A stretch of 64,000 nucleotides of DNA from sequence record OR896834.1; one strand, written 5' to 3'. Shown here in pieces: positions 21,208 to 38,518 of the stretch. The stretch comes from Escherichia phage Baret. The notes below the pieces were generated by a model. It did no database searches, was not told where the DNA came from, and worked only from the letters and a program-made list of their open reading frames with translations. A program made the translations under genes and the position numbers. How positions within the stretch are numbered: position 1 is the stretch's first letter; every line of letters begins with the position of its first letter.

Positions 21208-22019
21208 ATATTCATAAATTAGAGAACAGCGAGCCGATTACGCTGAACTTGTCTTAATGTAAGATGCGTCAAGCACTAAGATTCGTTGAATAGAGTCGGT
21301 GGGTTAGTTGTAAAACTAGTACACAGGGGGCGGCAATCCCGGTTAGTGGCTAGAACGTGTAAAATGAGGCGTCTGAAACCTCTCCCCTAAACTCTTCTCT
21401 AATTTATAAATAGTGGGGTGTGGAAATCACTTATGTAGTAACACTGCCGTCCTAGTATAATTGGTATTATCAAGCCGTAACTGGTGGAAGATGTAGGTTC
21501 GAATCCTACGGTCGGTAAGAACTGGATAACTGATGCTTTTAACGTAAAAGCTTCCGAGGTTAGTTGCGCACTGCCTAAACCACGCGGTAGTTGGTTCCAG
21601 ACTAACCAACCAGTCTGCTGAATAGTTTTATTACGATTTAACTATGCCCAGGCTAAAGAAGAACTTTAGAAGGTATTCTAGGGTAGTGAAGTTCTTTCTC
21701 CATATCGGAGTAGTTTTTCAAGCTATCCACAAAGTGGGAAATGCTGACATGAGAGATGTCACTAATGGTGCACAATAGCACAGGTAATTCGCGATAACTC
21801 CTGTTGAGTAGCAGCAAAAGGTGGGAAGTCATGACCCCAAGCCTAACCGAGTCCTCAATATACCGCAGGACATAACCACTAAGTCACCCTGACTTAAACT
21901 GGAAAATAATAGACGTTACCGTATTTTGTCTTGAAATACTTAATGAGTGAGACTTATGACTCTCCCGGTATCGTCTGTATTTTTAAGAGTTTTTACGAGA
22001 GTTCTTAAAAATACTTAAA

Positions 22020-23807: not shown

Positions 23808-23885
23808 GGTTCTCAAGCTCATATGGTATGAGCACCCGGCTCATAACCGGAAGGTACGTAGGTTCGAATCCTCGGGGAGCCACCA
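23808..23885 (+). tRNA. tRNA with CAT anticodon (Met/fMet/Ile2 type)
   Basis: 7-bp acceptor (2 GU), D-stem GCTC/GAGC, loop CTCATAA, CCA; T-stem imperfect. Confidence 0.6.
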
Positions 23886-25946: not shown

Positions 25947-26138
25947 ATGAGAAGATTAGTTAGATTTAAGTGTTGTAGTTCTGAACATATTTTCACACAT
26001 CTTCGTGAATTTAAAATGTGTGATTGTGGTAAATCAGGCTATGACTCTGGAAATGGGTTCTACACCCGTACTCTAGGGAACTTCAATGATTTAGAATTTG
26101 AAGATCTCGAAAAACAAGATAAACCGACCGTTGGCTGA
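25947..26138 (+). CDS. small Cys-rich (zinc-finger-like) protein
   Basis: 63 aa; CC...CDC cysteines; 3' end overlaps tRNA-Cys. Confidence 0.4.
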   Translation: MRRLVRFKCCSSEHIFTHLREFKMCDCGKSGYDSGNGFYTRTLGNFNDLEFEDLEKQDKPTVG

Positions 26139-26200
26139 ATGGCTTAGGCGAAGGATTGCAAATCCTTTTTATGTGAGTTCAAATCTCATGCGGTCGTCCA
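26125..26200 (+). tRNA. tRNA-Cys (anticodon GCA)
   Basis: Acceptor CGACCGT/GCGGTCG, AC stem AAGGA/TCCTT loop TTGCAAA, T-arm GTGAG-TTCAAAT-CTCAT, CCA. Confidence 0.8.
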
Positions 26201-26221
26201 AATTACTAAAGGAAAGAAGTA

Positions 26222-26740
26222 GTGCATACAAAAGTTTTTGATAGTTTGGTAAAGAAAGGCGTTGTTACTAACGAGCCCTTCTATATAACCGCAGAACTAA
26301 TCCAGAGATTTATGGAAGAATATATAAATCTTTCAGGAACCAATGGTAATACCAAAAAGAATACAAATACTATGTATTCGAGAAAACTTGCTGCACTTTC
26401 CTTTATAAAGTTTAAGCAGGAAAATAAACTTCCTATTTCTGAAGGTTTTGTATACTGTATTAGTAATCCTGCATGGAAAAATCAGTATAAAATAGGTATG
26501 AGTCAAAATCCAAAAGAGAGATTAGCTCAATATCAGACTTATTCCCCTTATAGGGATTATAAGTTAGAGCATTGGTCTTTTTGGTTTGACAAACGAAAAG
26601 GTGAAAAACTAATTCACCAGTATTTCAAAGATTTAAAAGAACATGAGTGGTTTAGTATAAATTCTAGGGATCTTAGTAAATATCTAGAACGTATTAACTC
26701 TAGTTCTGACTTATATGGTTCCTTAGCTCTAATTGGTTAG
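26222..26740 (+). CDS. T5orf172-type GIY-YIG-like nuclease-domain protein
   Basis: 172 aa; GFVYCISNP...YKIGMSQNPKER motif; true start may be internal Met; last ~24 nt overlap tRNA-Asn. Confidence 0.55.
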   Translation: MHTKVFDSLVKKGVVTNEPFYITAELIQRFMEEYINLSGTNGNTKKNTNTMYSRKLAALSFIKFKQENKLPISEGFVYCISNPAWKNQYKIGMSQNPKERLAQYQTYSPYRDYKLEHWSFWFDKRKGEKLIHQYFKDLKEHEWFSINSRDLSKYLERINSSSDLYGSLALIG

Positions 26741-26794
26741 AGCGGCATCTTGTTAAGTTGAGGGTTGCTGGTTCGAATCCAACAGGAACCGCCA
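26717..26794 (+). tRNA. tRNA-Asn (anticodon GTT)
   Basis: Acceptor GGTTCCT/AGGAACC, D-stem GCTC/GAGC, loop TTGTTAA, CCA; AC stem has 2 mismatches. Confidence 0.7.
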
Positions 26795-26896
26795 AATTCT
26801 GTGTAGAGTTAAGTAAACCGGTAGCCAACCAGCTATCATTGCTGACATCGAATTCAGCCATAGATACCATTTTCGTTAATAACTGAGGAAACAAGC

Positions 26897-27082
26897 ATGT
26901 CCAAGAATGTAATTGCGCAGCTAGAAGTTCATCGTGATAGCACTATCAACAATATTGAAGTTGAGAAGAAATACATAGAAGAACTTAAACATGATATACT
27001 GGTAAGTCTCAACCGTCTTAATGTACGAAAAGAGTTTCTTAAAGAACTTAATGCAGCTATTGAAAAACTCAAAGCTGAGTAA
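26897..27082 (+). CDS. hypothetical coiled-coil protein (61 aa)
   Basis: ORF track. Confidence 0.35.
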   Translation: MSKNVIAQLEVHRDSTINNIEVEKKYIEELKHDILVSLNRLNVRKEFLKELNAAIEKLKAE

Positions 27083-27091
27083 ATGAATTAT

Positions 27092-27168
27092 GCGACCGGG
27101 GCTGGCTTGGTAATGGTACTCCCCTGTCACGGGAGAGAATGTGGGTTCAAATCCCATCGGTCGCGCCA
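27092..27168 (+). tRNA. tRNA-Asp (anticodon GTC)
   Basis: Acceptor GCGACCG/CGGTCGC, AC stem CTCCC/GGGAG loop CTGTCAC, T-arm GTGGG-TTCAAAT-CCCAT, CCA. Confidence 0.85.
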
Positions 27169-27185
27169 AATAAGGTAGGTTAGCT

Positions 27186-27344
27186 ATGGAACGTAGGGAG
27201 TTTACTCCAGAAGAGATAGAGCAGATAAAAGAATCTGCTATGAAAAATGCTAGAATATCTCTGTCACTGGAAGGTATCATTATTAGTGATGTAAACTTTG
27301 AAAAAATCAAAGCCATAGCTGATGAACTGGAAAAAGTAATTTAA
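27186..27344 (+). CDS. hypothetical small protein (52 aa)
   Basis: ATG 27186 with SD AAGGTAGG; below ORF-track cut-off. Confidence 0.3.
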   Translation: MERREFTPEEIEQIKESAMKNARISLSLEGIIISDVNFEKIKAIADELEKVI

Positions 27345-27345
27345 T

Positions 27346-27421
27346 ACATCCATAGCTCAATGGTTAGAGCTACCGCCTCTTAAGCGGAGGGTTCTAGGTT
27401 CAAGTCCTAGTGGGTGTACCA
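27346..27421 (+). tRNA. tRNA-Lys (anticodon CTT)
   Basis: Acceptor ACATCCA/TGGGTGT, D-stem GCTC/GAGC, loop CTCTTAA, T-arm CTAGG-TTCAAGT-CCTAG, CCA. Confidence 0.75.
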
Positions 27422-27447
27422 AATTAAACTAGCACGAGAAATATGCT

Positions 27448-27795
27448 ATGATTAATGCTAAAGAAGAATTGTTACTTGCCCTAAAGAATACTAATTCTGA
27501 AGTTAAGTGTATTAAGATAGAATTCGGTTATTATGGGGATAAAGAAGTTTGGGTATTACCCGTAGGTTATACAGAAAAAGATATTGAAGATTTTCTAGAT
27601 AATCTAGACTTTAAATATGATTCTGGTTTCGGCGGACAATTGCTTTATGGTAACGTATGGTTTACCGATGGAACTTGGTTAGAACGTGGTGAATATGATG
27701 GTTCTGAATGGTGGGAATATAAGACTACACCAGCAATCCCAGAAGAATGCCGAACAATTAATGGTGAAGTAGATCGTACTTTACTATTAAATTAA
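27448..27795 (+). CDS. hypothetical protein (115 aa)
   Basis: ORF track. Confidence 0.45.
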   Translation: MINAKEELLLALKNTNSEVKCIKIEFGYYGDKEVWVLPVGYTEKDIEDFLDNLDFKYDSGFGGQLLYGNVWFTDGTWLERGEYDGSEWWEYKTTPAIPEECRTINGEVDRTLLLN

Positions 27796-28187
27796 CAAAA
27801 TTTCAGTGCAGAACACGGAGCTAGCAATTCGGAAGTGCTGACTCATGATAAGCTGCCTATGTACTTGCGAAGCGGTCGTGTCCAAGACTCGGACTCTTGC
27901 ACTGAAAACAATCAAACATTCTAGCGTGGTTGATGGGGAAACCAGCTTGGCGAGGGCAGAAGCTCGTTCGATTCGAGTGAAAGAATGGTTCTCGTAAGTC
28001 CGCACAAGTGATAACAGGTTCGAGTCCTGTCTAGAATGACACTATAAAGTTTACTTATTATGTAGGTTCCGATAGACCGGCGGGTCTATTCTGGCATTTA
28101 AGAGAGGTCTCGCAAACTTCTTTGTCAGCCGTGGGGTTGGTAGCCTCCAGGTGGCCTACACAATAAGTAAATTTATTAAAAATTCAT

Positions 28188-28216
28188 TTGCTATTCTGCT
28201 TTATTATCTGTATAAT
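28188..28216 (+). promoter_or_regulatory. early promoter (TTGCTA-17-TATAAT)
   Basis: -35 28188-28193, -10 28211-28216. Confidence 0.6.
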
Positions 28217-28248
28217 ATATTTTATAAAGTGAAGAGAAGGAAAGCAAA

Positions 28249-28407
28249 ATGAAACACAAGATAGCTCAAGTTTTTATGGCATTATGGTGTATACCAATAG
28301 CTATAACAGCATTTAATCTAGATACTTTTACTATAGAAGAAAAATGTATCGGATTAGTTAGCGGTTTTAGTATGCTGGGCTTATCTTTGCTGTGGTTAAA
28401 GAAATAA
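28249..28407 (+). CDS. small hydrophobic membrane protein (52 aa)
   Basis: ATG 28249 with SD GAAGGAAAG after promoter; below ORF-track cut-off. Confidence 0.35.
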   Translation: MKHKIAQVFMALWCIPIAITAFNLDTFTIEEKCIGLVSGFSMLGLSLLWLKK

Positions 28408-28411
28408 TATT

Positions 28412-28489
28412 CTCCGTGTAGCTCAGTTTGGCCAGAGCGTTTCGTTTGGGGCGATAGGGTCGGGGGTTCAAATCCTCCCACGGAGACCA
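28412..28489 (+). tRNA. tRNA-Pro (anticodon TGG)
   Basis: Acceptor CTCCGTG/CACGGAG, D-stem GCTC/GAGC, loop TTTGGGG, T-arm GGGGG-TTCAAAT-CCTCC, CCA. Confidence 0.8.
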
Positions 28490-28495
28490 AACAAT

Positions 28496-28573
28496 TGCGG
28501 GTTAGATCTCTGGTAGAGATCGCTAGTCTCATAAGCTAGAAAGAGGTAGGTTCGATTCCTGCACCCGCTTCCA
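28496..28573 (+). tRNA. tRNA with CAT anticodon (Met/Ile2 type), U1-U72 mismatch
   Basis: D-stem GATC/GATC, AC stem CTAGT/GCTAG loop CTCATAA, T-arm GTAGG-TTCGATT-CCTGC, CCA. Confidence 0.7.
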
Positions 28574-28593
28574 CTTTAATAGAGGATTTCGAA

Positions 28594-28761
28594 ATGAAAG
28601 TATTTCGATTAGTAGTAAGTGACAAACGTTTAGGTAAGAATACCTCAAAATCCTTACTTGCTCATTATGGAAAAGATGAGAAAGAAGTAATGGCGGAGTT
28701 TGGGATTAATCACCCTTACTTGAAAGTTCACTCTATTAAAGAAGTATATAATGGTTACTAA
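28594..28761 (+). CDS. hypothetical small protein (55 aa)
   Basis: ATG 28594; between tRNAs; below ORF-track cut-off. Confidence 0.3.
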   Translation: MKVFRLVVSDKRLGKNTSKSLLAHYGKDEKEVMAEFGINHPYLKVHSIKEVYNGY

Positions 28762-28888: not shown

Positions 28889-29126
28889 ATTTATATAAAT
28901 TGATGAGGATTTCTCCTCATCATAGTTCACTAAGGTATTAGCTCGACCTAGGACTGGCTGCCAAAAAGCACGATCCCTACGATTCGGGAGGAGTTCTAGA
29001 TTAGTCCACTAGATTCAGCGGCAACTGAATAGTGTATTGGGTTTGCGAGATGACGCGGTTCCTTCCGCTCGAAGCGAAGGTGCTGTAGTTACGCCGAGCT
29101 AATAGCCTTAGTAAACTAAAGAATTT

Positions 29127-29846: not shown

Positions 29847-29851
29847 AATCT

Positions 29852-29980
29852 TGGAATATGCCGGAATTGGTAGACGGGACTGCCGAATAGGTTTACTAGG
29901 AACATCCACTCCTAGAAATATACCTTAAAAGCGGTTGAGTTAAATGGTCTAACTCATGAAGGTTCAAGCCCTTCTATTCC
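29852..29980 (+). ncRNA. atypical ~127-nt tRNA-like RNA with Leu-type D-arm
   Basis: 5' TGGAATA + D-arm CCGG-AATTGGTAGA-CGGG, two extra hairpins, T-arm GAAGG-TTCAAGC-CCTTC and 3' TATTCCT pairing with the 5' end; no canonical anticodon arm. Confidence 0.3.
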
Positions 29981-30211
29981 TTGATACATCAATGGCTCAA
30001 AGTGTAACGGTGCTATTTGATGCTCTTGGAAAGACTTTCCCGACATGCGTTCGGGGGTAAGCTTCTGAGGCTAGAATAGAAGAGTTTCTGAGAGCCGCCA
30101 CAATTGAAAATTCGTACTCGTCTTGAGCTGCGTGCAATAGGAGATAACTTGATTAGTATTCTAGAACATGCTAATTGAGGATGGTTTCGCTAACCCTGCG
30201 AGTTTTCAATT

Positions 30212-30604: not shown

Positions 30605-30680
30605 TGGAGAGTAGTGTAACGGTTAGCACAACGGCCTTTGACTCCGTTAATGGTAGGTTCGATTCCTCCTTCTCCAGCCA
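30605..30680 (+). tRNA. tRNA-Gln (anticodon TTG)
   Basis: Acceptor TGGAGAG/TTCTCCA, D-stem GTGT/GCAC, loop CTTTGAC, CCA. Confidence 0.75.
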
Positions 30681-30687
30681 AATTAAT

Positions 30688-30762
30688 GCGTGATTAGTTC
30701 AGTGGCTAGAATAACTGGCTTCCAACCAGTAGACACGAGTTCGACTCTCGTATCCCGCACCA
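30688..30762 (+). tRNA. tRNA-Gly (anticodon TCC)
   Basis: AC stem ACTGG/CCAGT loop CTTCCAA, T-arm ACGAG-TTCGACT-CTCGT, CCA; one acceptor mismatch. Confidence 0.8.
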
Positions 30763-30776
30763 AATAAGGAAACACT

Positions 30777-31028
30777 ATGCACGTTTTTGAGTTTCGTAAT
30801 AAAAGTACTGATAAGCGAGTTATCATTATTGGAGAAACATATCGAGCATATGAACAAACTGATGGCTCTGTTATCTTGAATGATGAGAAAGGAGGTTTTA
30901 GCTTTTATCCAGAAGAACCTTATGAAGAGTTTCGAAAACAATTTAACCTAGACTGGAGAAAGCATTTAAACACTGTTGCTTCATCTGTAGTATTGCCAAC
31001 TACCAGTACTGTACTCTCTAATGGCTGA
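30777..31028 (+). CDS. hypothetical protein (83 aa)
   Basis: ORF track; SD AAGGAAAC. Confidence 0.4.
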   Translation: MHVFEFRNKSTDKRVIIIGETYRAYEQTDGSVILNDEKGGFSFYPEEPYEEFRKQFNLDWRKHLNTVASSVVLPTTSTVLSNG

Positions 31029-31187
31029 CAACCTAAAAGTAAAGATTGATAAACAAAAGAAACGTGTAGAAGTAGAGATTGGTGAAGAACGTGTTGCCTT
31101 TACTTTTGAATTTCTACAGCAAATGGCAATGGCAGTTATGACTGATAAGTCTCCTGTTATTGAAAAAGAAATCCCGTTGAAATAACG
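31023..31187 (+). CDS. hypothetical small protein (54 aa)
   Basis: ATG overlapping upstream stop (ATGGCTGA); below ORF-track cut-off. Confidence 0.3.
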
Positions 31188-31195
31188 GGATCATC

Positions 31196-31270
31196 GCTCC
31201 TAAAGCATTGCTGGCGATGCAGTTGCCTTGTAAGCATCTGAACCGGGTTCGATTCCTGGTGGGAGCACCA
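31196..31270 (+). tRNA. tRNA-Thr (anticodon TGT)
   Basis: Acceptor GCTCCTA/TGGGAGC, D-stem GCAT/ATGC, loop CTTGTAA, T-arm CCGGG-TTCGATT-CCTGG, CCA. Confidence 0.8.
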
Positions 31271-31285
31271 AATTTAAAAATTCAT

Positions 31286-31314
31286 TTGCCTTCTCTCTTA
31301 TTTATTGTTATAAT
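31286..31314 (+). promoter_or_regulatory. early promoter (TTGCCT-17-TATAAT)
   Basis: -35 31286-31291, -10 31309-31314. Confidence 0.6.
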
Positions 31315-31344
31315 ATTCATATAAATTAATGAGAGGGAAACCAA

Positions 31345-31635
31345 ATGAAACGTTATCTTTCTATTGTATTCCAAACTGGTGGTCAAAGATATACCTATGA
31401 ATTTCCATCTTCTTGGAAAATCAAAGAAGGTGATCAAGTAGTAGTGTTAACACCGCGTGAAGGGTATAAAGTAGTAATGGTTAAACAAGTATTCCCAAAA
31501 GATCATGAACCAGCTAAAGGCATTCGCTATAAGATGATTCATGGTGTGGTCCGTCAAGTACCACGAACTGAGGTAGAAGTAGATAAGACTGGAGAAACTA
31601 AATTCCATTATACTTCTTACTTAGATAGTGTGTGA
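31345..31635 (+). CDS. hypothetical protein (96 aa)
   Basis: ORF track; SD GAGAGGGAAAC. Confidence 0.45.
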   Translation: MKRYLSIVFQTGGQRYTYEFPSSWKIKEGDQVVVLTPREGYKVVMVKQVFPKDHEPAKGIRYKMIHGVVRQVPRTEVEVDKTGETKFHYTSYLDSV

Positions 31636-31650
31636 TGTAAATATTCTAAT

Positions 31651-31727
31651 ACTTCGGTAGCTTAGCGATCTAAAGCACCCGGCTGATAACCGAGAGATCG
31701 GGGGTTTAAATCCCTCCCGGAGTACCA
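31651..31727 (+). tRNA. tRNA-Ile (anticodon GAT)
   Basis: Acceptor ACTTCGG/CCGGAGT, D-stem GCTT/AAGC, loop CTGATAA, T-arm GGGGG-TTTAAAT-CCCTC (variant T-loop), CCA. Confidence 0.8.
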
Positions 31728-31826
31728 AATTTAGGAATTAAGACTATGCGTCCAGGAAAGTTTAAAAAAGCTAATTGGTCTAAAGAGTATAAAGAATACT
31801 TACTTAGTCTAGTAAAACATAACAGT

Positions 31827-31902
31827 TAGTTGGCAGAGTGGTTATGCACCTCCTTCATACGGAGCGACTACAGTGGTTCAAATCCACTACTAACTACCAT
31901 TA
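31827..31902 (+). tRNA. tRNA with CAT anticodon (Met/fMet/Ile2 type)
   Basis: Acceptor AGTTAGT/ACTAACT, loop TTCATAC, T-arm AGTGG-TTCAAAT-CCACT, CCA. Confidence 0.7.
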
Positions 31903-31936
31903 AAATAGCTAGAGATAGCTAAATTTAGGAGCAGCT

Positions 31937-32131
31937 ATGTTAACAATTAAAATAATGTCAGCCAAGAATGGTGAACATATCCATACAGGCAAAAGCGTAA
32001 GCTTTAATCCTAGAAATAAGAGATTGGCTATAGTTGGAGTAGATCAAGCCATCTTTTTAAAAGAAGATGAAGTAGCATACGTCATGAACCAAACTGGTAA
32101 GACAGTTTCCGTATACTATGGAAAAGTATAA
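31937..32131 (+). CDS. hypothetical protein (64 aa)
   Basis: ORF track. Confidence 0.4.
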   Translation: MLTIKIMSAKNGEHIHTGKSVSFNPRNKRLAIVGVDQAIFLKEDEVAYVMNQTGKTVSVYYGKV

Positions 32132-32173
32132 AGAATAAAGAGCTGAGCCAAATTCTAGCATCGTGGAGATCTA

Positions 32174-32542
32174 ATGAAAGCATATCAAAATCTTAAGTCT
32201 GGCGTAATTAATCTTGTTCATGATAATCAGATTATTCAACTGTACTCTAAAAATGGCGAACTTAAACAAAAAGTTCTGGTTGAGGATCTAGAGGGTATTA
32301 CACCCCATTTTGACCCCGAGTCCTTTCGTGAAGTCAAGGTGGAAGTCGCCCCTCAAATTGAAGGTGGTCAGCACCTAAATGTCAATGTGTTAAGTCGTGA
32401 TCAGCTTTTGGATGCACAGAAACATCCTGAAAAATACCCTCAATTAACTATCCGTGTTTCAGGGTACGCTGTGCGTTTTAACGCACTGACGCGTGAACAG
32501 CAGAACGACGTTATTAGTCGTACATTTACTCAGGCGATGTAA
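32174..32542 (+). CDS. grcA: autonomous glycyl-radical cofactor GrcA(YfiD)-like protein
   Basis: 122 aa; C-terminal [11 protein letters not shown]...[21 protein letters not shown] closely matches the GrcA/PFL glycyl-radical domain (RVSGYAV). Confidence 0.8.
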
Positions 32543-32623
32543 TGGGGCTTGGATACGGTTTCTACGAACTACGTAAGGTAGTCGAGCAAACTCCATTTAT
32601 CTCCCAAGTTTTAGGAGAAATGT

Positions 32624-32938
32624 GTGGATCGAGCATTAAGACGTCATCACCGGCAACGTGTAAAGAACAACCGCAAGAAGTATTGGACAGTCTTCCCACA
32701 TGAAGAAAGCCCTAAACGGTTAGGTATTATCACTACTACTCCTTGTATCTGTTCTTGTTGGATGTGCGGGAATCCTCGCAAATACTTTAAGAATAGTAAA
32801 GCAGGGATGAAAACCTCGGAGATTAGGAAAATGGAAGCAATGATTACGGATATTTCAAATGATGAATTTGATGGCTTTGTAGGATTCGGAGAAGGAATTA
32901 GCTCAGGCTGTTTCGAAGATGTACGCCCCGATTTGTAA
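32624..32938 (+). CDS. hypothetical Cys-rich basic protein (104 aa)
   Basis: ORF track. Confidence 0.4.
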   Translation: MDRALRRHHRQRVKNNRKKYWTVFPHEESPKRLGIITTTPCICSCWMCGNPRKYFKNSKAGMKTSEIRKMEAMITDISNDEFDGFVGFGEGISSGCFEDVRPDL

Positions 32939-32947
32939 TTAATAACA

Positions 32948-32982
32948 AACCCCAGCTATTGAATAGGTAGTCTGGGGTTTTT
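32948..32982 (+). terminator. intrinsic terminator
   Basis: CCCCAG...CTGGGG hairpin followed by TTTTT. Confidence 0.6.
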
Positions 32983-33059
32983 CTGTATACAGGTAGATAA
33001 TTTATGTATAATAAAATTCATCCACATTAGGTTAATTTAAAAAACTTAATGGAGGTAAT

Positions 33060-33407
33060 ATGAGCCGTACTTATCGTAAACAATCTGGTGATCAGTGGTG
33101 GAAGTCTAAAGAACAATTCTCTCAAGAATATTCTTTCATCAAAGAAAATGGCTACTGGATTCGTGTTATTTATGCCAAATCTTGGGACGACATCAAAAAA
33201 GAAATGAAGGAAGCAACCATTCGTAATGAGAAAAAGGATGGTTATAACTGGAATTCTGTTAGTAAGAATGTTAAGTGGCATTCTAATAAAATGGTTCGTC
33301 AAGGGAATCGTCAAGAACTCCACCGCGTGATGAAAGATCCAGAAAATTACGACTATAATCGCGATCATGACATGCGTAAGCGTGGATTATGGTGGTGCTA
33401 TGACTAA
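33060..33407 (+). CDS. hypothetical protein (115 aa)
   Basis: ORF track; SD GGAGG. Confidence 0.45.
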   Translation: MSRTYRKQSGDQWWKSKEQFSQEYSFIKENGYWIRVIYAKSWDDIKKEMKEATIRNEKKDGYNWNSVSKNVKWHSNKMVRQGNRQELHRVMKDPENYDYNRDHDMRKRGLWWCYD

Positions 33408-33424
33408 ATTCTGAAATAATTCAT

Positions 33425-33453
33425 TTGCTAAACCTCTCTTTTCTTGCTATAAT
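33425..33453 (+). promoter_or_regulatory. early promoter (TTGCTA-17-TATAAT)
   Basis: -35 33425-33430, -10 33448-33453. Confidence 0.6.
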
Positions 33454-33483
33454 ATATTTATAAATTGATGAGAGAGGTTTGAA

Positions 33484-33765
33484 ATGAAAAATCGCCTAGA
33501 CTGTGCCATTCATGTTCTTGAACATGATGTTGTGGGAACCTGTATGTCTTACCACGAAGCAGGTCCTTTAATTAAAGAACGTGTGGCAGATGTGTGTGGA
33601 TTGAAGATTACTGCTGAGGAAGCTGATGATCTTTTAGGTCAAGCACTGGAAAAAACCGAAATGTTCCTATGCGATTCTTGTTCTTGGTGGTGTGAAGCTC
33701 ACGAACGTTCTTTCAACGATTATGATGTATGTCGTGATTGTAGTGGGGAGGATGAAGATGAATAA
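33484..33765 (+). CDS. hypothetical Cys-rich acidic protein (93 aa)
   Basis: ORF track. Confidence 0.4.
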   Translation: MKNRLDCAIHVLEHDVVGTCMSYHEAGPLIKERVADVCGLKITAEEADDLLGQALEKTEMFLCDSCSWWCEAHERSFNDYDVCRDCSGEDEDE

Positions 33766-34057
33766 GTTTATTATTGCACTGATGATCTCCGCAGTTAGTT
33801 TCGGTTCTCTGGCATCTACCAAAGTTTCTATGAAAAACGGTAATGTTAAAGTCCAACAAAACGGCATCATTACTGAATATGGTAAAGTGCGTGATGTTAA
33901 GGAACGTAATGGCAAAGTAGAAATATATACTAATAAAAACTTCTCTACTCCGGCTGTTACTGTTAGCAAACGTGGTGAGATAACTACTCAACGTACTAAT
34001 AGCTCTAGTTCTTTTACTTGTCGTTATGATTGCGACTTTGAAGGTGAAGATGAATAA
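33758..34057 (+). CDS. small secreted protein with signal peptide (99 aa)
   Basis: ATG 33758 overlapping upstream stop; N-terminal MNKFIIALMISAVSFGSLAS. Confidence 0.4.
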   Translation: MNKFIIALMISAVSFGSLASTKVSMKNGNVKVQQNGIITEYGKVRDVKERNGKVEIYTNKNFSTPAVTVSKRGEITTQRTNSSSSFTCRYDCDFEGEDE

Positions 34058-34442
34058 TTTAGATCCTAGAATTAAATTTGCAATTACAGAAATCCAAGAT
34101 CAAATTGATGAAGACTTCACTATTTGGTCAAGATCTGGTAATGGGGAATACTGCCAGCTTTACAGCATGAAAATGGGTATCTCAATTGAGCTTAATATCA
34201 ACTCTGAAGGTAGGGTAGAAGCCCAACCCATGTTCAGTGTTCCAGGCTTCTCTGGGTTTGTTGCGGGTATGAAATTATGCCTACCAAATAACCATCTTCA
34301 TCGAGTTATTTGTCAGCTAGAGACTATTAAGCATTTCTTGCCAGAAGATAATATTAATGACTACTACCATGAAGTTGTAGCAGCTCATATGATGAAAGAA
34401 TGCAAACGTCGGAGAGAAGAACGTGAAAAGACTAAATATTAA
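34050..34442 (+). CDS. hypothetical protein (130 aa)
   Basis: ATG 34050 overlapping upstream stop; track ORF 34026 trimmed. Confidence 0.4.
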   Translation: MNNLDPRIKFAITEIQDQIDEDFTIWSRSGNGEYCQLYSMKMGISIELNINSEGRVEAQPMFSVPGFSGFVAGMKLCLPNNHLHRVICQLETIKHFLPEDNINDYYHEVVAAHMMKECKRRREEREKTKY

Positions 34443-34719
34443 TAGCACAGTGCAGATCCCAGCAACTAAGGATATTTTAACATTCCTACGTAGTGAGAAT
34501 GCCCAGTTTTGGCATGACTATATCCAGAAAAATAAAAATAACCCAGATGTAGTTGCCTTTGCCAAAAAACGTATCGAAGAATATAAAGATCCAGAGATTA
34601 AAGATGGGATGATCACTATGCAATTGTGGGTAGCCATGAATACGTTTGGACCTACTATGAGTCTAGGATTTACTCCGCTGTTTACAAATATTCTAATTAA
34701 TGAAAAGGATCTGAAATGA
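34423..34719 (+). CDS. hypothetical protein (98 aa)
   Basis: ORF track. Confidence 0.4.
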   Translation: MKRLNINSTVQIPATKDILTFLRSENAQFWHDYIQKNKNNPDVVAFAKKRIEEYKDPEIKDGMITMQLWVAMNTFGPTMSLGFTPLFTNILINEKDLK

Positions 34720-35000
34720 TTATCTCTCCCTTTGCTCTTTGGTTCGTCATTGGATCCATAGTAGCTATTTATAGCTTGGTTGATGATCTGTATATTTCTA
34801 AGAACAAAGATGTAATATTATATGTTATACATAAAACCCGACCGTTAGACCTACCACCTCTTGATGATAAAACATTACTCAGATGTGCTAGATCTGTGAT
34901 ATTTATTATGGATATTCTTCTAGGCCCAACATCTGTATTTTTCTATTACCGAAAAACTCGTAATATGAAAAAATTTAAAGCAGAAATGCAGAATAATTAA
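34716..35000 (+). CDS. hypothetical membrane protein (94 aa)
   Basis: ORF track; hydrophobic segments. Confidence 0.4.
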   Translation: MIISPFALWFVIGSIVAIYSLVDDLYISKNKDVILYVIHKTRPLDLPPLDDKTLLRCARSVIFIMDILLGPTSVFFYYRKTRNMKKFKAEMQNN

Positions 35001-35074
35001 AGAACTCGCGTAGGACCGAGTTGCGTCACCTGCAACTGTTACGGATAAGGGAGTCGTGCCCCTTAGTGCGGTAA

Positions 35075-35455
35075 GTGGTGAGGTGGCTGCTAGCCCTAAC
35101 TGGAGATGATATGACTATATTACTAATTCTTGTTACTACCTGGTTTTTAATCGGTGCTGGATATGCGATAGCTATTATTAGACATTTGGACGAATATTCT
35201 GCTGAATGGTTTATTAAGTATCTACGTATTGATGATAAAGAACAGAAGTTTAAAGATGAAAAGCAGAAAAAAGCAGTAAATAATATGACAGCCAAAGAAT
35301 GCTTGTTCTACATGCGTATTGTAGGGTTCTTTGGACTATTAGTTGCTGGCCCAATTGGTTCTACCATTGCTCCATATAAAGAAACAGTTGCTGACATCAA
35401 ATTGTGGAGAAATGCAGGGGTACTGCGTAAAGCTAGAGAAACCAATATTACATAA
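35075..35455 (+). CDS. hypothetical membrane protein (126 aa)
   Basis: ORF track; two hydrophobic helices. Confidence 0.4.
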   Translation: MVRWLLALTGDDMTILLILVTTWFLIGAGYAIAIIRHLDEYSAEWFIKYLRIDDKEQKFKDEKQKKAVNNMTAKECLFYMRIVGFFGLLVAGPIGSTIAPYKETVADIKLWRNAGVLRKARETNIT

Positions 35456-35500
35456 GATTGATACTAAATCAACTTACTAGCAAAAGCAAATAATGACAAA

Positions 35501-35535
35501 GCCCAGCCTGCACTTTTGCGACTGGGCTATTTTTA
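35501..35535 (+). terminator. intrinsic terminator
   Basis: GCCCAGC...GCTGGGC-like hairpin followed by TATTTTT. Confidence 0.6.
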
Positions 35536-35549
35536 TAATAAAATTTTAA

Positions 35550-35578
35550 TTGCTTAGATGCCCAAACTTTTGTATAAT
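35550..35578 (+). promoter_or_regulatory. early promoter (TTGCTT-17-TATAAT)
   Basis: -35 35550-35555, -10 35573-35578. Confidence 0.6.
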
Positions 35579-35609
35579 ATGTTTATAGATTGAGGCAAGA
35601 GGATTAAAT

Positions 35610-36308
35610 ATGAGGATTATTTCTAAGTTCGCCGATGTGTATGATTTGCAGAACAGTTTGTTCGACCCAGATCGTGTGTGGGAACGTAAAACTGAGGAGT
35701 TACTGGTTAAAGTAACCGATGATGCAGAAAAGAACATTGTGCATACTCGCCAGGTATTTCGTGATGGTTCGCTATCTTTCCGTGGTGATTTCGAATACTT
35801 CGTAAACCCCCTATTTGTTGCAGGTGAAGTTTACTGGTTACACGAGCTGTACTGCTGGCATCCAGCATTTAGCTTCAAAACGTTTAATCTCGACACTATG
35901 TTCGATAAAATGGAAGAGATGGGATTACATGCTCGCTCTTACTTAAGGGATAAGAGTCGTGGAGATGTTCGTGAAACAATGCGTGATCTGCTAGCTGAAG
36001 CAAAACCTAAAGCAGAACGTATCTTATCCGAACTGCGTGTACCGATTGCATATGTGAAAGGTATTAAAAAGAACGATAACGATGATGTTCGTAACTTCGT
36101 AATTCAGACTAACATTCGTTTCCATCAGTCCGGTATTCCGTGGCAGGAAATTGAAAGTAACTTATACCGTTTACACCAAGTTCTCGAACAGTATATCTTC
36201 GGTGTACTAGGAACTGGTGAGCCTGATATGATTAAAGTATCAGATAAAGACAGGTTAGCAGCGCATGGATTTGATACAAAAACTTCTTTCAGGAATATGG
36301 CGCGGTAA
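35610..36308 (+). CDS. hypothetical protein (232 aa)
   Basis: ORF track; SD AGAGGA. Confidence 0.5.
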   Translation: MRIISKFADVYDLQNSLFDPDRVWERKTEELLVKVTDDAEKNIVHTRQVFRDGSLSFRGDFEYFVNPLFVAGEVYWLHELYCWHPAFSFKTFNLDTMFDKMEEMGLHARSYLRDKSRGDVRETMRDLLAEAKPKAERILSELRVPIAYVKGIKKNDNDDVRNFVIQTNIRFHQSGIPWQEIESNLYRLHQVLEQYIFGVLGTGEPDMIKVSDKDRLAAHGFDTKTSFRNMAR

Positions 36309-36714
36309 GTGGTATATCCTGGGAGCAGGTCTAGCGATAGGCATCGGGTTCGGTGCTTATCACTTAATAAATAAAGTGGAGACTTTGTCGGGAGATCTTG
36401 CGGTAGCTACTAAAAAGATCTCTTCTCTAGAGACTTCCCTTAACAAGGTGAAAGCTGAGAGTGAACTTCGCGAGACTCGTATGAATCAGTATTTCACAAT
36501 GAATAATGTTTCCCAAGCAGATCTAGATAAGAAAATTAGTCAGCTTGATAAAGCACTTAGTCGTCAAGACATTATAGCTGCAAAGCCTGGATTGGTAACA
36601 TTAATTGCTAAAAAGCAGAGTAAGGAGTTCGAGGAAAGATTAGCATGTTTAACTGGAAACTTGGAATACTGCTCGCAGCCGCAATCACAATCACAGGCTG
36701 TGCACAAGAAATAA
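36265..36714 (+). CDS. putative i-spanin-like protein (TM helix plus coiled coil)
   Basis: 149 aa; TM segment WYILGAGLAIGIGFGAYHLI then coiled-coil region. Confidence 0.4.
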   Translation: MDLIQKLLSGIWRGKWYILGAGLAIGIGFGAYHLINKVETLSGDLAVATKKISSLETSLNKVKAESELRETRMNQYFTMNNVSQADLDKKISQLDKALSRQDIIAAKPGLVTLIAKKQSKEFEERLACLTGNLEYCSQPQSQSQAVHKK

Positions 36715-36998
36715 AGACAGAATCTACACATGAGCTACCAACAGCTCATGTAGACTGGCCCAAAGGACTTCAACCTTGTAGCTTTGACTTTAAGTTTGAA
36801 AAGAAATTAGCTACAAATGGAGAAGATGGTGTAGTAGTTGTTGTACCATATAAAGATTGGAATATGTTGGCAAAATGCCGTGAGGCAGAATATTCATATA
36901 TTTCACGACTGACAAGTATGGTTTGCTTCTATCGCCAAGATTTACAAGAAAAACGTTGCTTAGTTTACTATCCACCCATTACAAATAGGAAAGATTAA
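36645..36998 (+). CDS. putative o-spanin-like lipoprotein
   Basis: 117 aa; signal peptide with lipobox ITGC; start overlaps 3' end of the i-spanin-like ORF in another frame. Confidence 0.4.
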   Translation: MFNWKLGILLAAAITITGCAQEIKTESTHELPTAHVDWPKGLQPCSFDFKFEKKLATNGEDGVVVVVPYKDWNMLAKCREAEYSYISRLTSMVCFYRQDLQEKRCLVYYPPITNRKD

Positions 36999-37750
36999 TG
37001 TCAGTATTAGTCGGTTTACATGGTGAAGCTGGTTCGGGAAAAGATACCGTTGCAAAATTAATTATCGATTGGTGTAATGACACGTATCCAACGTGTTTAC
37101 CCCGTCGTTATAGTTTTGCTAAGCCCGTTTATGAACTTGCATCCGTAATCCTCGGTGTAACTCCAGAGTTTCTAGGAGAGCGCAGGGGAAAAGAGGTTGA
37201 CCAATGGTTTACGATCACACAATCTCAATTGGAGCGAGCCAGAGATGTGTGGGTTAAGTATGGTATCGATAAGTTTGAAGACTTCTCGTACGTTTGGCCT
37301 ATTTTTGAGGAAAAATATCTTAATCCCCAACAACTTATCTCAGAGAGTAAAGAAGATGGTCTTTATAGTTTATTTATTTCTCCGAGAAAAATGTTACAGC
37401 TCGTAGGAACAGAGCTAGGAAGGCAGCTGGTGCATGAACGCATTTGGCTCATAATTCTGGAGCAATCCATCGCTAAAGACGACCCAGACGTCGCTGTAAT
37501 AACAGATGTTAGATTCCCCAATGAAGGAGAGCTACTCAGAGAAACAAACCATTTAGATATGGATTCTTTGATAGTAAATGTAGTACCAGCTGAGCAGAAG
37601 TTCACTATTAAATCAGATCATCCATCTGAAAGGGGTATTCCTGCAAAATATATTACTCACGAATTAGTTAATAAATTCGATGGTATCAATAACCTTAAAC
37701 TAGAAGTTTATAACTTCTGTGACTTAGAGCTAGAACCACTAGTTGGATAA
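36998..37750 (+). CDS. dnk: deoxynucleoside monophosphate kinase
   Basis: 250 aa; P-loop GEAGSGKDT; T5 dNMP-kinase-like. Confidence 0.7.
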   Translation: MSVLVGLHGEAGSGKDTVAKLIIDWCNDTYPTCLPRRYSFAKPVYELASVILGVTPEFLGERRGKEVDQWFTITQSQLERARDVWVKYGIDKFEDFSYVWPIFEEKYLNPQQLISESKEDGLYSLFISPRKMLQLVGTELGRQLVHERIWLIILEQSIAKDDPDVAVITDVRFPNEGELLRETNHLDMDSLIVNVVPAEQKFTIKSDHPSERGIPAKYITHELVNKFDGINNLKLEVYNFCDLELEPLVG

Positions 37751-37762
37751 TCAAGGATCGCT

Positions 37763-38362: not shown

Positions 38363-38370
38363 GTAATTTT

Positions 38371-38400
38371 AAGCCAGGGTTAAGTACCCTGGCTTTTCTT
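38371..38400 (+). terminator. intrinsic terminator
   Basis: AAGCCAGGG...CCCTGGCTT hairpin followed by TTCTTTT. Confidence 0.6.
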
Positions 38401-38464
38401 TTATCTAAAATTCTTCTTGACAACGACATAATTTTATGCTCCAAGTGTAACATTTAAAAACCCA

Positions 38465-38493
38465 TTGAAATTTTCCTCCAAAATTAGTATAAT
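38465..38493 (+). promoter_or_regulatory. promoter upstream of holin (TTGAAA-17-TATAAT)
   Basis: -35 38465-38470, -10 38488-38493. Confidence 0.5.
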
Positions 38494-38518
38494 GGTACTG
38501 GTTAGAGGAGGTTACAAA

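What the first reader, a model, noticed from the sequence alone, without database searches (positions are those of the whole stretch)
27796..28187. Structured non-coding segment with long-range pairing and two tRNA-like T-arms
The ~390 nt between ORF 27448-27795 and the next promoter have no ORF. TTTCAGTGCAG (~27801) pairs with CTTGCACTGAAA (~27896), and two T-arm-like hairpins occur (GCTCG-TTCGATT-CGAGT ~27962 and ACAGG-TTCGAGT-CCTGT ~28014). ATTCTAG (~27917) pairs with CTAGAAT (~28031) like an acceptor stem, but the span is ~120 nt, so it is not a canonical tRNA.
Basis: seen in the sequence. Interest (0 to 1): 0.5.

Follow-up and report, generated by a model that had tools for sequence, protein, structure and literature searches.

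The report
Phage T5 tRNA-like stable RNA genes
The "empty" 390-base spacer holds two small stable RNA genes already annotated in phage T5 (RNA2 and RNAIV, functions unknown) plus one unannotated conserved hairpin; RNA2 proves to be a transfer-RNA look-alike without a usable anticodon that is conserved across many unrelated large phages.

Summary
The window is a T5-like phage. Positions 27917-28041 and 28060-28162 are orthologues of T5 genes rna2 ("tRNA-like stable RNA with unknown functions") and rnaIV ("stable RNA with unknown functions"). The segment is three independent modules, not one.

- **E1 (27801-27907):** an unannotated hairpin-closed element. It is at least 93% identical in 219 phage records and shows no covariation.
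- **RNA2:** a complete tRNA cloverleaf whose anticodon loop carries a ~55-nt module. The module has its own invariant T-loop hairpin (GUUCGAUUC), a GG strand and an invariant CGUAA-N-UCCGCA.
- **RNAIV:** a cloverleaf-like four-way junction inside a 20-bp precursor stem, found only in T5 relatives.

New here: RNA2 belongs to a family absent from Rfam. It has 41 distinct members in T5-like, Acinetobacter T4-like and 200-570 kb jumbo-phage contigs, nearly always in or next to tRNA genes. Covariation is strong (91% of cells paired versus 59% in shuffles).

Function remains unknown. The best-supported reading is a non-decoding tRNA mimic, matured by tRNA-processing enzymes, whose inserted module is the working part. 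It is dispensable in laboratory T5.

The parts
27801..27907 (+). E1: unannotated conserved element closed by a 10-bp stem (27801-27810 with 27898-27907). Its inner fold is unsupported.
   Evidence: Sequence. Predicted fold, z = -1.4. At least 93% identical in 219 phage records. No compensatory changes. Not annotated in T5 or in the phage 5 record.
27917..28041 (+). RNA2 gene, the orthologue of T5 rna2/T5s06: a 125-nt tRNA-shaped RNA without a free anticodon loop.
   Evidence: 96.8% identical to the annotated rna2 of AJ604531. T5 annotation. Model scores of 131.7 and 121.9 bits.
27918..27924 (+). RNA2 acceptor stem, 5' strand. It pairs with 28031-28037. C27917 and G28038 add an eighth pair.
   Evidence: All 8 pairs show changes on both sides across 41 sequences.
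27927..27944 (+). RNA2 D arm: TGGTT, loop GATGGGGA, AACCA.
   Evidence: Helix 2 is 96% paired, and all 5 pairs covary.
27945..27949 (+). RNA2 anticodon-stem equivalent, 5' strand. It pairs with 28005-28009.
   Evidence: Helix 3 is 96% paired, and all 5 pairs covary. Rfam's tRNA model aligns this stem as the anticodon stem in relatives.
27950..28004 (+). The 55-nt module replacing the anticodon loop. GGGC 27954-27957 pairs with GUCC 27998-28001. AGA 27958-27960 pairs with UCG 27992-27994. UAA bulge at 27995-27997. Single strand with GG at 27979-27991. GCA at 28002-28004.
   Evidence: Invariant blocks in 41 of 41 members. The G.U pair is 41/41 invariant. The third pair of the NGN/NCG helix covaries: UA 16, GC 10, AU 8.
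27962..27978 (+). Inner T-loop hairpin: 5-bp stem with loop UUCGAUU closed by G-C.
   Evidence: The loop and closing pair are invariant, apart from a single loop base (UUCAAUU) in Pectobacterium phage My1. The next three stem pairs (columns 56-58/68-70) have 15-26 double changes each. The outermost pair is weak: 16 unpaired, 12 gaps.
28014..28030 (+). RNA2 outer T arm: ACAGG, loop TTCGAGT, CCTGT.
   Evidence: Helix 8 is 97% paired, and 4 of 5 pairs covary.
28031..28041 (+). RNA2 acceptor 3' strand (28031-28037), discriminator G28038 and tail ACA. No CCA is encoded.
   Evidence: Sequence. The flanking tRNAs encode CCA. Tails vary in the family, and CCA is encoded in about 6 of 41 members.
28047..28174 (+). 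RNAIV precursor hairpin. 28047-28066 pairs with 28155-28174: 20 bp with one A.C mismatch and one G.U pair.
   Evidence: Fold z = -5.4, with 0 of 200 shuffles as stable. The flank sequence is nearly invariant in T5-like phages.
28060..28162 (+). RNAIV gene, the orthologue of T5 rnaIV/T5s05: a 103-nt cloverleaf-like four-way junction with invariant loops C-GGCG-G and CUCGCAA.
   Evidence: Annotation. 98% identical to the phage 5 rnaIV. Covariation. Found only in Demerecviridae.
28188..28216 (+). Promoter P13a (TTGCTA, 17-nt spacer, TATAAT). It starts the next transcription unit and bounds the RNA block.
   Evidence: Consensus scan, 10 of 12 matches. Annotated as promoter P13a in T5 and phage 5.

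Best explanation
The spacer is a block of three small non-coding RNA modules inside the early tRNA operon of a T5-like phage.

**Transcription and processing.** The block is transcribed from an upstream sigma-70 promoter together with the flanking tRNAs and small ORFs. It is then cut out of the polycistronic precursor by host RNases.

**RNA2 (27917-28041).** This is a tRNA-derived gene. It keeps a full tRNA frame: acceptor stem, D arm with a GG loop, 5-bp anticodon stem, short variable loop and a canonical T arm. I infer that RNase P and the 3'-end trimming enzymes mature it like a tRNA. Its anticodon loop is occupied by a conserved ~55-nt module, built as follows:
- a 4-bp GGGY/RUCC helix with an invariant G.U pair;
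- a UAA bulge;
- a 3-bp helix;
- a 5-bp hairpin capped by a perfect T-loop;
- a GG-containing strand that could dock into that T-loop as D-loop G18/G19 do in tRNA.

This would give a second 'elbow' at the end of a lengthened anticodon arm.

**How RNA2 probably works.** It cannot decode. It most likely acts in trans as a tRNA mimic whose inserted module is the functional surface. That surface would be a binding platform or decoy for a tRNA-binding factor, for example a host tRNA-targeting defence nuclease or a tRNA-processing or modifying enzyme.

**RNAIV (28060-28162).** A second cloverleaf-like stable RNA, probably released from a 20-bp precursor duplex by an RNase III-type cut.

**E1.** A conserved stem-closed spacer RNA of unknown role.

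**Shown versus inferred.**
- Shown: identity with the annotated T5 genes, the secondary structures of RNA2 and RNAIV, the breadth of the RNA2 family, and its setting among phage tRNA genes.
- Inferred: the processing enzymes, the second elbow, and the mimic/decoy function.

**Confidence.** The stated value of 0.55 covers the whole statement. The identity and structure parts are near certain. The mimic/decoy function alone is about 0.3.
For: **Identity**
- The window is 100% identical to Salmonella phage PMBT29, a T5-like phage.
- T5 RefSeq annotates rnaIV and rna2 at the syntenic place. The phage 5 tRNA-region record does the same.

**RNA2 structure**
- The covariance model separates 61 family hits (at least 57 bits) from ordinary tRNAs (at most 43 bits).
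- On 41 distinct sequences, 91.2% of cells are paired versus 59.4% in shuffles. 28 of 36 pairs have double changes.
- Rfam's tRNA model aligns relatives end to end, with a 51-59 nt insertion in place of the anticodon loop.
- The module's blocks are invariant in 41 of 41 members, and GG is present in all 41 single strands.

**Context**
- Most members lie in or next to tRNA genes of large phages: T5-like, Sugarlandvirus, Myunavirus, Acinetobacter phages 133 and Acj9, and contigs of 204-570 kb. Two contigs had only a distant tRNA gene or none.
- No conserved neighbouring protein was found.
- No match was found in 5,426 E. coli genomes.

**Transcription**
- Within 26000-28700 the scan finds, upstream of the block, only one weak 9/12 match at 26842-26870. 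A second weak 9/12 match lies inside RNA2. The next good promoter lies after RNAIV.

**RNAIV**
- 18 of 36 pairs are compensatory and 97.6% of cells are paired.
- The flanking duplex has z = -5.4.

**Background from the literature**
- Phage tRNAs of T5 counteract tRNA-cleaving defence systems (PMC11464382; PMC10644984). This makes a tRNA-shaped decoy in the same cluster plausible.
Against: - No experiment or paper available here assigns any function. The annotation itself says 'unknown functions'.
- The T5Mos deletion (30661-38625) removes rna2 and rnaIV (T5 32838-33083), yet the phage still grows. The RNAs are therefore dispensable under laboratory conditions.
- The decoy idea rests only on shape and context. 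No partner was identified, and no co-occurring protein gene was found.
- The second-elbow contact cannot be tested by covariation, because both partners are invariant.
- In Acinetobacter phage 133 and in L161 the outer D arm and acceptor stem are degenerate while the module is intact. The tRNA frame may therefore matter less than the module.
- The E1 structure beyond its closing stem has no comparative support.
- The annotated RNAIV ends give a 1-nt 3' overhang, not the 2-nt overhang typical of RNase III.
Confidence: 0.55

Rival explanations
1. RNA2 is an interrupted, potentially functional tRNA. On this reading it is an Arg(CCG)-type tRNA gene carrying a 45-58 nt insertion right after anticodon-stem position 31. 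The insertion would be removed (spliced) or displaced, exposing a 7-nt anticodon loop N-U-CCG-C-A.
For: - With introns allowed, ARAGORN of 41 members tRNA-Arg(ccg) with a 45-58 nt intron.
- The block N-UCCGCA next to the 3' strand of the anticodon stem is invariant. This is the pattern expected of an anticodon loop in an isoacceptor family.
- The fold places a 5'-strand bulge, a 4-bp helix and a 3-nt UAA bulge in an arrangement that recalls the archaeal bulge-helix-bulge splice motif.
Against: - T5 annotates the full 125-nt molecule as the stable RNA.
- No tRNA-splicing endonuclease is known in these hosts or phages (my own knowledge).
- At 55 nt the insert is far too small for a group I intron.
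- The insertion site, 31/32, is not the canonical 37/38.
- Position 37 would be C rather than a purine.
- The insert has its own invariant blocks and covarying helices, which argues for function in the mature RNA.
- ARAGORN gives other anticodons, or nothing, for 28 of 41 members, including the window copy.
Confidence: 0.07
2. The elements are cis-acting processing or stability signals of the tRNA operon, not trans-acting RNAs. They would serve as RNase P, RNase III or RNase E entry sites, or as protective hairpins for neighbouring transcripts.
For: - All three lie between genes of one transcription unit.
- RNAIV sits in a 20-bp duplex, an RNase III-like substrate.
- E1 is only a conserved stem-closed spacer without covariation.
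- Neighbouring insertions (an ORF in phage 5, tRNA-Gly in BF23) come and go between RNA2 and RNAIV.
Against: - The RNA2 module keeps over 30 invariant nucleotides across phages that share no neighbouring genes. A local processing signal does not need this.
- T5 records describe RNA2 and RNAIV as stable RNAs, meaning accumulating products.
- RNAIV has invariant loops with covarying stems.
Confidence: 0.12
3. The elements are decaying tRNA pseudogenes or relics of mobile-element insertion, with no function.
For: - T5 tRNA regions are mosaic, carry homing endonuclease genes, and tolerate deletions.
- RNA2 is dispensable in the laboratory.
- Other T5 'stable RNAs', such as RNA1, look like degenerate class II tRNAs.
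Against: - Compensatory changes maintain every helix of RNA2 in 41 divergent sequences, and the module is invariant.
- Family members occur in unrelated phage families and in environmental contigs.
- This is the signature of purifying selection on an RNA.
Confidence: 0.03
4. The segment encodes a small protein on either strand.
For: ORFs of 29-50 aa on the + strand and 72 aa on the - strand overlap the region. Some automated annotations place 'hypothetical protein' features there.
Against: - The ORFs cross RNA boundaries.
- Substitutions in RNA2 and RNAIV follow base-pairing, not codon structure.
- Curated T5 records annotate RNAs there, not coding sequences.
Confidence: 0.02

Closest known systems
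Bacteriophage T5 rna2 (T5s06) and rnaIV (T5s05), annotated in NC_005859 and AJ604531
   Same: Same genes, with the same order and spacing: ORF T5.067 homologue, E1, rna2, rnaIV, promoter P13a. Identity to the phage 5 copies is 97-98%.
   Different: Nothing essential differs. Other T5-like phages carry an ORF or a tRNA-Gly(GCC) between rna2 and rnaIV, which this window lacks. E1 is not annotated in those records.
Canonical bacterial or phage tRNA (Rfam RF00005)
   Same: Acceptor stem, U8-type linker, D arm with GG, 5-bp anticodon stem, 4-5 nt variable loop and a T arm with a GUUCRANYC loop. RNA2 lies among tRNA genes. Some relatives pass the Rfam tRNA threshold.
   Different: The 7-nt anticodon loop is replaced by a structured module of ~55 nt. 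The window copy is not called by Rfam or ARAGORN. No CCA is encoded here, although the neighbouring tRNAs encode it. An extra -1:73 pair is present in 28 of 41 members.
Bacteriophage T4 species 1 and species 2 RNAs (rnaC, rnaD)
   Same: Small stable RNAs of unknown function at the edge of a phage tRNA cluster. rnaC ends with a T-arm plus acceptor-like 3' part and the same ...ACA tail.
   Different: No detectable homology. Neither RNA2 model reports them in the T4 locus, at E up to 0.001 for R1 and 0.01 for R2, where only the T4 tRNAs score. They lack the GGGY...GUUCGAUUC...CGUAA-N-UCCGCA module.
tmRNA tRNA-like domain
   Same: An acceptor/T-arm frame whose anticodon side is replaced by other RNA. 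Both are matured by tRNA enzymes (my own knowledge).
   Different: RNA2 has no reading frame, no pseudoknot series and no G3.U70 in the acceptor stem (column 3/149). It keeps a normal D arm. ARAGORN and Rfam make no tmRNA call.
Bacterial Y-RNA-like tRNA mimics (YrlA) and other tRNA-like non-coding RNAs
   Same: A non-decoding RNA that copies tRNA shape and is probably handled by tRNA enzymes.
   Different: No Rfam match even at E up to 10. There is no Ro-binding stem. RNA2 is encoded in phage tRNA clusters rather than next to rsr.
Intron-containing pre-tRNAs (archaeal bulge-helix-bulge type)
   Same: An insertion within the anticodon-loop region. It pairs with the anticodon-side nucleotides and forms bulge, 4-bp helix, bulge.
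   Different: The insertion site is 31/32, not 37/38. The 5' bulge and loop are irregular. No splicing enzyme is known in these systems. The full-length RNA is annotated as the stable product.

Membership tests
T5 rna2 (tRNA-like stable RNA) | Sequence orthology and synteny with the annotated gene | tested here: met
   96.8% identity over 125 of 125 nt to rna2 of AJ604531. Same neighbours as in T5 NC_005859.
T5 rna2 (tRNA-like stable RNA) | Accumulates as a discrete stable ~125-nt RNA in infected cells | not testable with these tools
   Only the wording of the database annotation is available. No primary paper was retrievable.
T5 rnaIV (stable RNA) | Sequence orthology and synteny with the annotated gene | tested here: met
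   98% identity to rnaIV of AJ604531. It lies directly upstream of promoter P13a, as in T5.
Canonical tRNA | Cloverleaf frame: acceptor stem, D arm, anticodon stem and T arm with a T-loop | tested here: met
   All four helices covary. The Rfam tRNA model aligns relatives end to end.
Canonical tRNA | Seven-nucleotide anticodon loop presenting an anticodon | tested here: not met
   The loop is replaced by a 51-59 nt structured module.
Canonical tRNA | Recognised by tRNA gene finders at their thresholds | tested here: not met
   The window copy gets no ARAGORN call, even with introns allowed. It gets no Rfam hit at gathering score or at E up to 10.
Canonical tRNA | 3' CCA end and aminoacylation | tested here: inconclusive
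   The window encodes G-ACA rather than N-CCA, while the flanking tRNAs encode CCA. CCA is encoded in about 6 of 41 relatives, for example KPN4. Post-transcriptional CCA addition and charging cannot be tested here.
tmRNA | tRNA-like domain with G3.U70, a tag reading frame and pseudoknots | tested here: not met
   No tmRNA call by ARAGORN or Rfam. Acceptor pair 3:70 is mostly A-U, U-A or G-C. At 125 nt, no reading frame fits.
Group I intron-containing tRNA | Insertion of at least ~200 nt with a group I core in the anticodon loop | tested here: not met
   The insert is 55 nt, and there is no Rfam intron hit.
Bulge-helix-bulge intron pre-tRNA | Two 3-nt bulges on opposite strands separated by 4 bp, with splicing yielding a 7-nt anticodon loop | tested here: inconclusive
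   The 3' UAA bulge and the 4-bp helix are present and invariant. The 5' side is an irregular 3-5 nt loop. Cutting in the bulges would not leave a 7-nt loop. Splicing is not testable.
T4 species 1/2 RNAs | Homology to rnaC or rnaD | tested here: not met
   Neither RNA2 model reports rnaC or rnaD in the T4 locus, at E up to 0.001 (R1) and 0.01 (R2). Only the T4 tRNAs score.
YrlA / Y-RNA-like | Match to the Rfam family; Ro-binding stem | tested here: not met
   No hit at E up to 10 in 27700-28300.

The most novel reading that the evidence does not exclude
RNA2 may be the founding member of a phage-wide class of 'anticodon-masked' tRNAs.

On this reading, an Arg(CCG)-type anticodon loop (U33-CCG-C-A, invariant in 41 of 41 members) is held in a built-in, codon-like duplex (C..GGG). 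The clamp is a 45-58 nt insertion that carries its own T-loop elbow.

The molecule could work in one of two ways:
- as a switchable or processed tRNA, unmasked by cleavage and re-ligation or by a partner;
- as a dedicated bait for anticodon-loop nucleases or for enzymes that read the tRNA elbow.

Either way it would be a new RNA-based counter-defence or translational device, shared by T5-like, T4-like and jumbo phages.
Probability: 0.12. Interest if true: 0.8.

Novelty: already known. Interest (0 to 1): 0.45.

Why it matters
According to the database records, the small stable RNAs of T5 still have no known function; by my own recollection, they and their T4 counterparts were first seen decades ago.

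- **What changes here.** The T5 RNA2 gene is not a T5 oddity. It represents a well-defined, strongly constrained RNA family spread over unrelated large phages and absent from Rfam.
- **What this gives.** A covariance model and a secondary structure with a clear 'business end': the invariant inserted module. It also gives a set of testable ideas.
- **Why the setting matters.** Phage tRNA clusters are now known to counter tRNA-cleaving host defence systems. A conserved non-decoding tRNA look-alike in the same clusters is therefore a natural candidate for an RNA-level counter-measure.
- **Practical point.** Automated phage annotations often lay 'hypothetical protein' features over these RNA genes. 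They should not.

Tried and rejected
- **Known RNA families.** Rfam at gathering score and at E up to 10, and ARAGORN, found nothing in the segment.
- **Homology to T4 rnaC/rnaD.** Not detected with either RNA2 model.
- **Cellular homologues.**
  - The pattern scan of 185,579 genomes gave 42 matches. My rough estimate is that about that many are expected by chance for 19 specified bases.
  - Only two were confirmed by the model (L130, L161). Both look like phage DNA, with many small same-strand ORFs and tRNA arrays.
  - No match was found in E. coli genomes.
- **First loose viral pattern for RNA2** (14 specified bases). Most hits were chance hits.
- **Pattern scan for RNAIV** (CCGGCGGGT...CTCGCAA). 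It returned 120 unrelated loci and no new homologue. The RNAIV model finds it only in Demerecviridae.
- **Conserved protein partner next to RNA2.** None is shared across lineages.
- **Covariation for E1.** There are too few substitutions, and those seen do not support the inner hairpins. The My1 element at the same position is a shorter, unrelated-looking hairpin.
- **Literature.** No paper describing RNA2 or RNAIV function or structure was retrievable.
- **Alignment error corrected.** I fixed it by rebuilding the model on 20 sequences with a manual structure.
- **Resemblances judged by eye and set aside as unsupported:** tmRNA pseudoknot 1 (CUCGUAAAAAGCCGCA), the 23S GTPase-centre hairpin, a K-turn at the UAA bulge, and an alanine-type G3.U70 minihelix reading of GGG/UCC-GCA.
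Full report
**What the window is**

The 1.4 kb around the finding is 100% identical to Salmonella phage PMBT29. It is 95-99.9% identical to many T5-like phages. The window carries 22-23 tRNA genes on one strand. It is therefore the early tRNA region of a Tequintavirus-type phage.

**Checking the observation**

- No plausible ORF exists.
- ARAGORN and Rfam report nothing between 27796 and 28187, even at E up to 10.
- The minimum-energy fold of the whole segment splits cleanly into three independent domains: E1 (27801-27907), a tRNA-like domain (27917-28041) and a long-stemmed domain (28046-28176).
- Energy statistics alone are unimpressive for E1 (z = -1.4) and the tRNA-like domain (z = -1.3). 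They are strong for the third domain (z = -5.4).

**It is already annotated**

The curated GenBank record of the phage 5 tRNA region (AJ604531) and the T5 reference genome annotate two RNAs at exactly these places.
- rna2: 'tRNA-like stable RNA with unknown functions', 125 nt, here 27917-28041.
- rnaIV: 'stable RNA with unknown functions', 103 nt, here 28060-28162.
- They are followed by promoter P13a. The consensus scan also finds it, at 28188-28216.

The window contains all seven 'stable RNA' genes of those records. E1 is not annotated in either record.

The T5Mos deletion 30661-38625 described in PMC11464382 removes T5 rna2 and rnaIV (32838-33083), and that phage is viable. Both RNAs are therefore dispensable in the laboratory.

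**RNA2 anatomy**

Homologues first appeared by BLAST in three phages: Pectobacterium phage My1, Klebsiella phage KPN4 and the T4-like Acinetobacter phage 133.

Model building and searches:
- A covariance model built from three sequences and pattern scans recovered further members.
- A second model, built on 20 sequences with a hand-checked structure, separates 61 family hits (57-122 bits) from ordinary tRNAs (at most 43 bits).
- The 41 distinct sequences come from several sources:
  - T5-like phages, Sugarlandvirus and Myunavirus;
  - an Acinetobacter T4-like phage (phage 133; BLAST also finds a match in Acj9);
  - contigs of 204, 310, 359, 363 and 570 kb;
  - many environmental contigs.
- Most lie in or next to tRNA genes. 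Two contigs had only a distant tRNA gene or none.

The structure is a full tRNA cloverleaf whose anticodon loop is replaced by 51-59 nt.
- The outer frame has an acceptor stem, D arm, 5-bp anticodon stem, 4-5 nt variable loop and T arm. These helices are 88-97% paired, and nearly every pair shows double substitutions.
- Overall, 91.2% of cells are paired versus 59.4% in shuffles and at most 46% with slid partners. There are 465 double-change cells versus 138.
- Rfam's own tRNA model aligns several relatives from end to end, with the insertion exactly in place of the anticodon loop. L331 scores 50.6 bits, L347 47.5 and L323 45.9.
- The window copy fails that model.

**The inserted module**

The module has the same plan in 41 of 41 members.
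- GGGY pairs with RUCC. The G.U pair is never replaced.
- A 3-nt helix NGN/NCG follows. Its third pair switches among U-A, G-C and A-U.
- An invariant UAA bulge lies on the 3' strand.
- A linker of 0-2 nt leads to a 5-bp hairpin. Three of its stem pairs covary freely. Its loop plus closing pair, GUUCGAUUC, is invariant, apart from one loop base (UUCAAUU) in Pectobacterium phage My1, and has every determinant of a tRNA T-loop.
- A single strand of 10-24 nt always contains GG.
- The invariant run CGUAA-N-UCCGC-A closes the module.

By analogy with G18/G19 docking on the T-loop in tRNA (established tRNA structure), I infer that the GG strand docks on the inner T-loop. This would put a second elbow at the tip of an anticodon arm lengthened to about 19 stacked pairs. 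It cannot be tested by covariation, because both partners are invariant.

**RNA2 ends**
- The window encodes ...CUAGAAU-G-ACA, whereas the neighbouring tRNAs encode CCA.
- Tails differ across the family. CCA is encoded in about 6 of 41 members, for example KPN4.
- An extra -1:73 pair exists in 28 of 41 members.

**A second reading of the invariant block**

With introns allowed, ARAGORN of 41 members 'tRNA-Arg(ccg)' with a 45-58 nt intron inserted right after anticodon-stem position 31.
- The seven nucleotides N-U-C-C-G-C-A next to the 3' strand of the anticodon stem have the register of an anticodon loop.
- In the supported fold they are clamped by C..GGGY.
- The arrangement of bulge, 4-bp helix and UAA bulge recalls an archaeal splice motif.

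I treat this as a low-probability rival, for these reasons:
- T5 annotates the full-length RNA as the stable species.
- No splicing enzyme is known in these systems.
- The insertion site is non-canonical.
- Position 37 would be C.
- The insert itself is under strong constraint.

It may nevertheless record the evolutionary origin of the family.

**RNAIV**

Seven sequences from four lineages support a cloverleaf-like four-way junction.
- The lineages are T5/BF23, two Epseptimavirus types and My1.
- The junction has a closing stem and three hairpins.
- The first hairpin is 8 bp with an invariant C-GGCG-G top.
- The second is a long arm ending in an invariant 7-nt loop, CUCGCAA.
- The third is 6 bp.
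- 18 of 36 pairs are compensatory, and 97.6% of cells are paired versus 86% in shuffles.

Other points:
- The model finds RNAIV only in Demerecviridae.
- In the window the mature RNA sits inside a 20-bp duplex (28047-28066 with 28155-28174). This is a typical double-strand RNase substrate.
- The annotated ends are staggered by one base. RNase III-type release is therefore plausible but unproven.

**E1**

- The 10-bp closing stem is real and invariant.
- The element is 93-100% identical in 219 phage records.
- In some Epseptimaviruses it follows directly after another tRNA-like element ending in CCACCA. This suggests it is released as a spacer fragment by the processing of its neighbours.
- The few substitutions fall in predicted loops or break predicted inner hairpins. 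Only 'conserved stem-closed RNA or DNA element, function unknown' is justified.

**Mechanism**

Shown:
- Gene identity.
- The structures of RNA2 and RNAIV.
- The breadth of the RNA2 family and its setting in or near phage tRNA genes.
- The absence of a strong dedicated promoter. Only two weak 9/12 matches were found, one upstream at 26842-26870 and one inside RNA2.
- The absence of a conserved protein neighbour.

Inferred:
- Maturation by RNase P and 3'-end enzymes, because of the intact tRNA frame.
- Trans action as a non-decoding tRNA mimic whose invariant module binds a partner.

T5 tRNAs are documented to neutralise tRNA-cleaving defence systems. A decoy or sponge for a tRNA-binding factor is therefore my preferred function, at roughly one chance in three. 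The identity and structure statements are near certain.

**Rivals**
- Interrupted tRNA: 0.07.
- Purely cis-acting processing signals: 0.12. This is more credible for E1 than for RNA2.
- Pseudogenes: 0.03.
- Coding sequence: 0.02.

**Verdict**

The finding is a correct reading of a feature already on record as T5 rna2 and rnaIV, so its novelty class is 'already known'. Three results appear to be new as far as the accessible literature and Rfam show:
- the definition of RNA2 as a widespread phage RNA family with a conserved anticodon-replacing module;
- the cloverleaf model of RNAIV;
- the recognition of E1.

Interest is moderate.

Noticed in passing
window 26797-26869, 28936-29107, 29850-29993, 29994-30100, 30105-30210: Homologues of the other five T5 'stable RNA' genes (rna3, rna2H, rna1, rnaI, rnaIII) are all present in the window. 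rna1 looks like a degenerate class II tRNA with an insertion. rnaI ends in an acceptor-like stem plus GCCA. None is called by ARAGORN or Rfam.
   Followed up: partly
L354 and L355 about 520-610; L356 about 313-400; L003 about 1713-1797; L001 about 2920-3000: Another unannotated tRNA-like element. It has a GGGGUYU/ARACUCC acceptor stem, an ACCA end, an anticodon-like loop UUGAAUC (seen in My1 only) and an odd 11-nt T-loop, GUAACACGUAGUC. It is conserved from Epseptimavirus to My1 and absent from this window.
   Followed up: no
L183:652-1136: A GOLLD RNA (Rfam RF02032, 176 bits) lies in the same tRNA-rich stretch of an 86-kb viral contig that also carries an RNA2-family member at 7104-7226.
   Followed up: no
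window 23808-23882 and 21446-21517: Rfam tRNA hits (40.3 and 35.5 bits) that ARAGORN did not call. They may be further tRNA or tRNA-like genes.
   Followed up: no
window 28008-28037: A weak sigma-70-like match (GTGATA, 18-nt spacer, TAGAAT; 9 of 12) lies inside the 3' part of RNA2, just upstream of RNAIV. It is probably fortuitous, but it could give RNAIV its own start.
   Followed up: no
between window 28041 and 28046 (L001:2746-3100; L002:1746-1958): The RNA2-RNAIV junction is an insertion hot spot. Phage 5 carries ORF trn2.10.1 plus a tRNA-like element there. BF23 and many Epseptimaviruses carry tRNA-Gly(GCC). This window has only 4 nt.
   Followed up: partly
L005:1464-1568 and L161:6936-7054: In Acinetobacter phage 133 and a related contig, the RNA2 homologue has lost a recognisable D arm and most of the acceptor pairing. 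It abuts the next tRNA gene, yet the inner module is intact.
   Followed up: partly
L161:7053-7127: ARAGORN calls a tRNA with anticodon CUA (amber-suppressor type, labelled tRNA-Pyl) directly beside the RNA2 homologue, in a 14-tRNA array.
   Followed up: no
several GenBank phage records under the query: Automated annotations place 'hypothetical protein' coding features over the rna2/rnaIV/E1 segment in a number of T5-like genomes, for example PMBT29 and WP85. These are likely mis-annotations of RNA genes.
   Followed up: no
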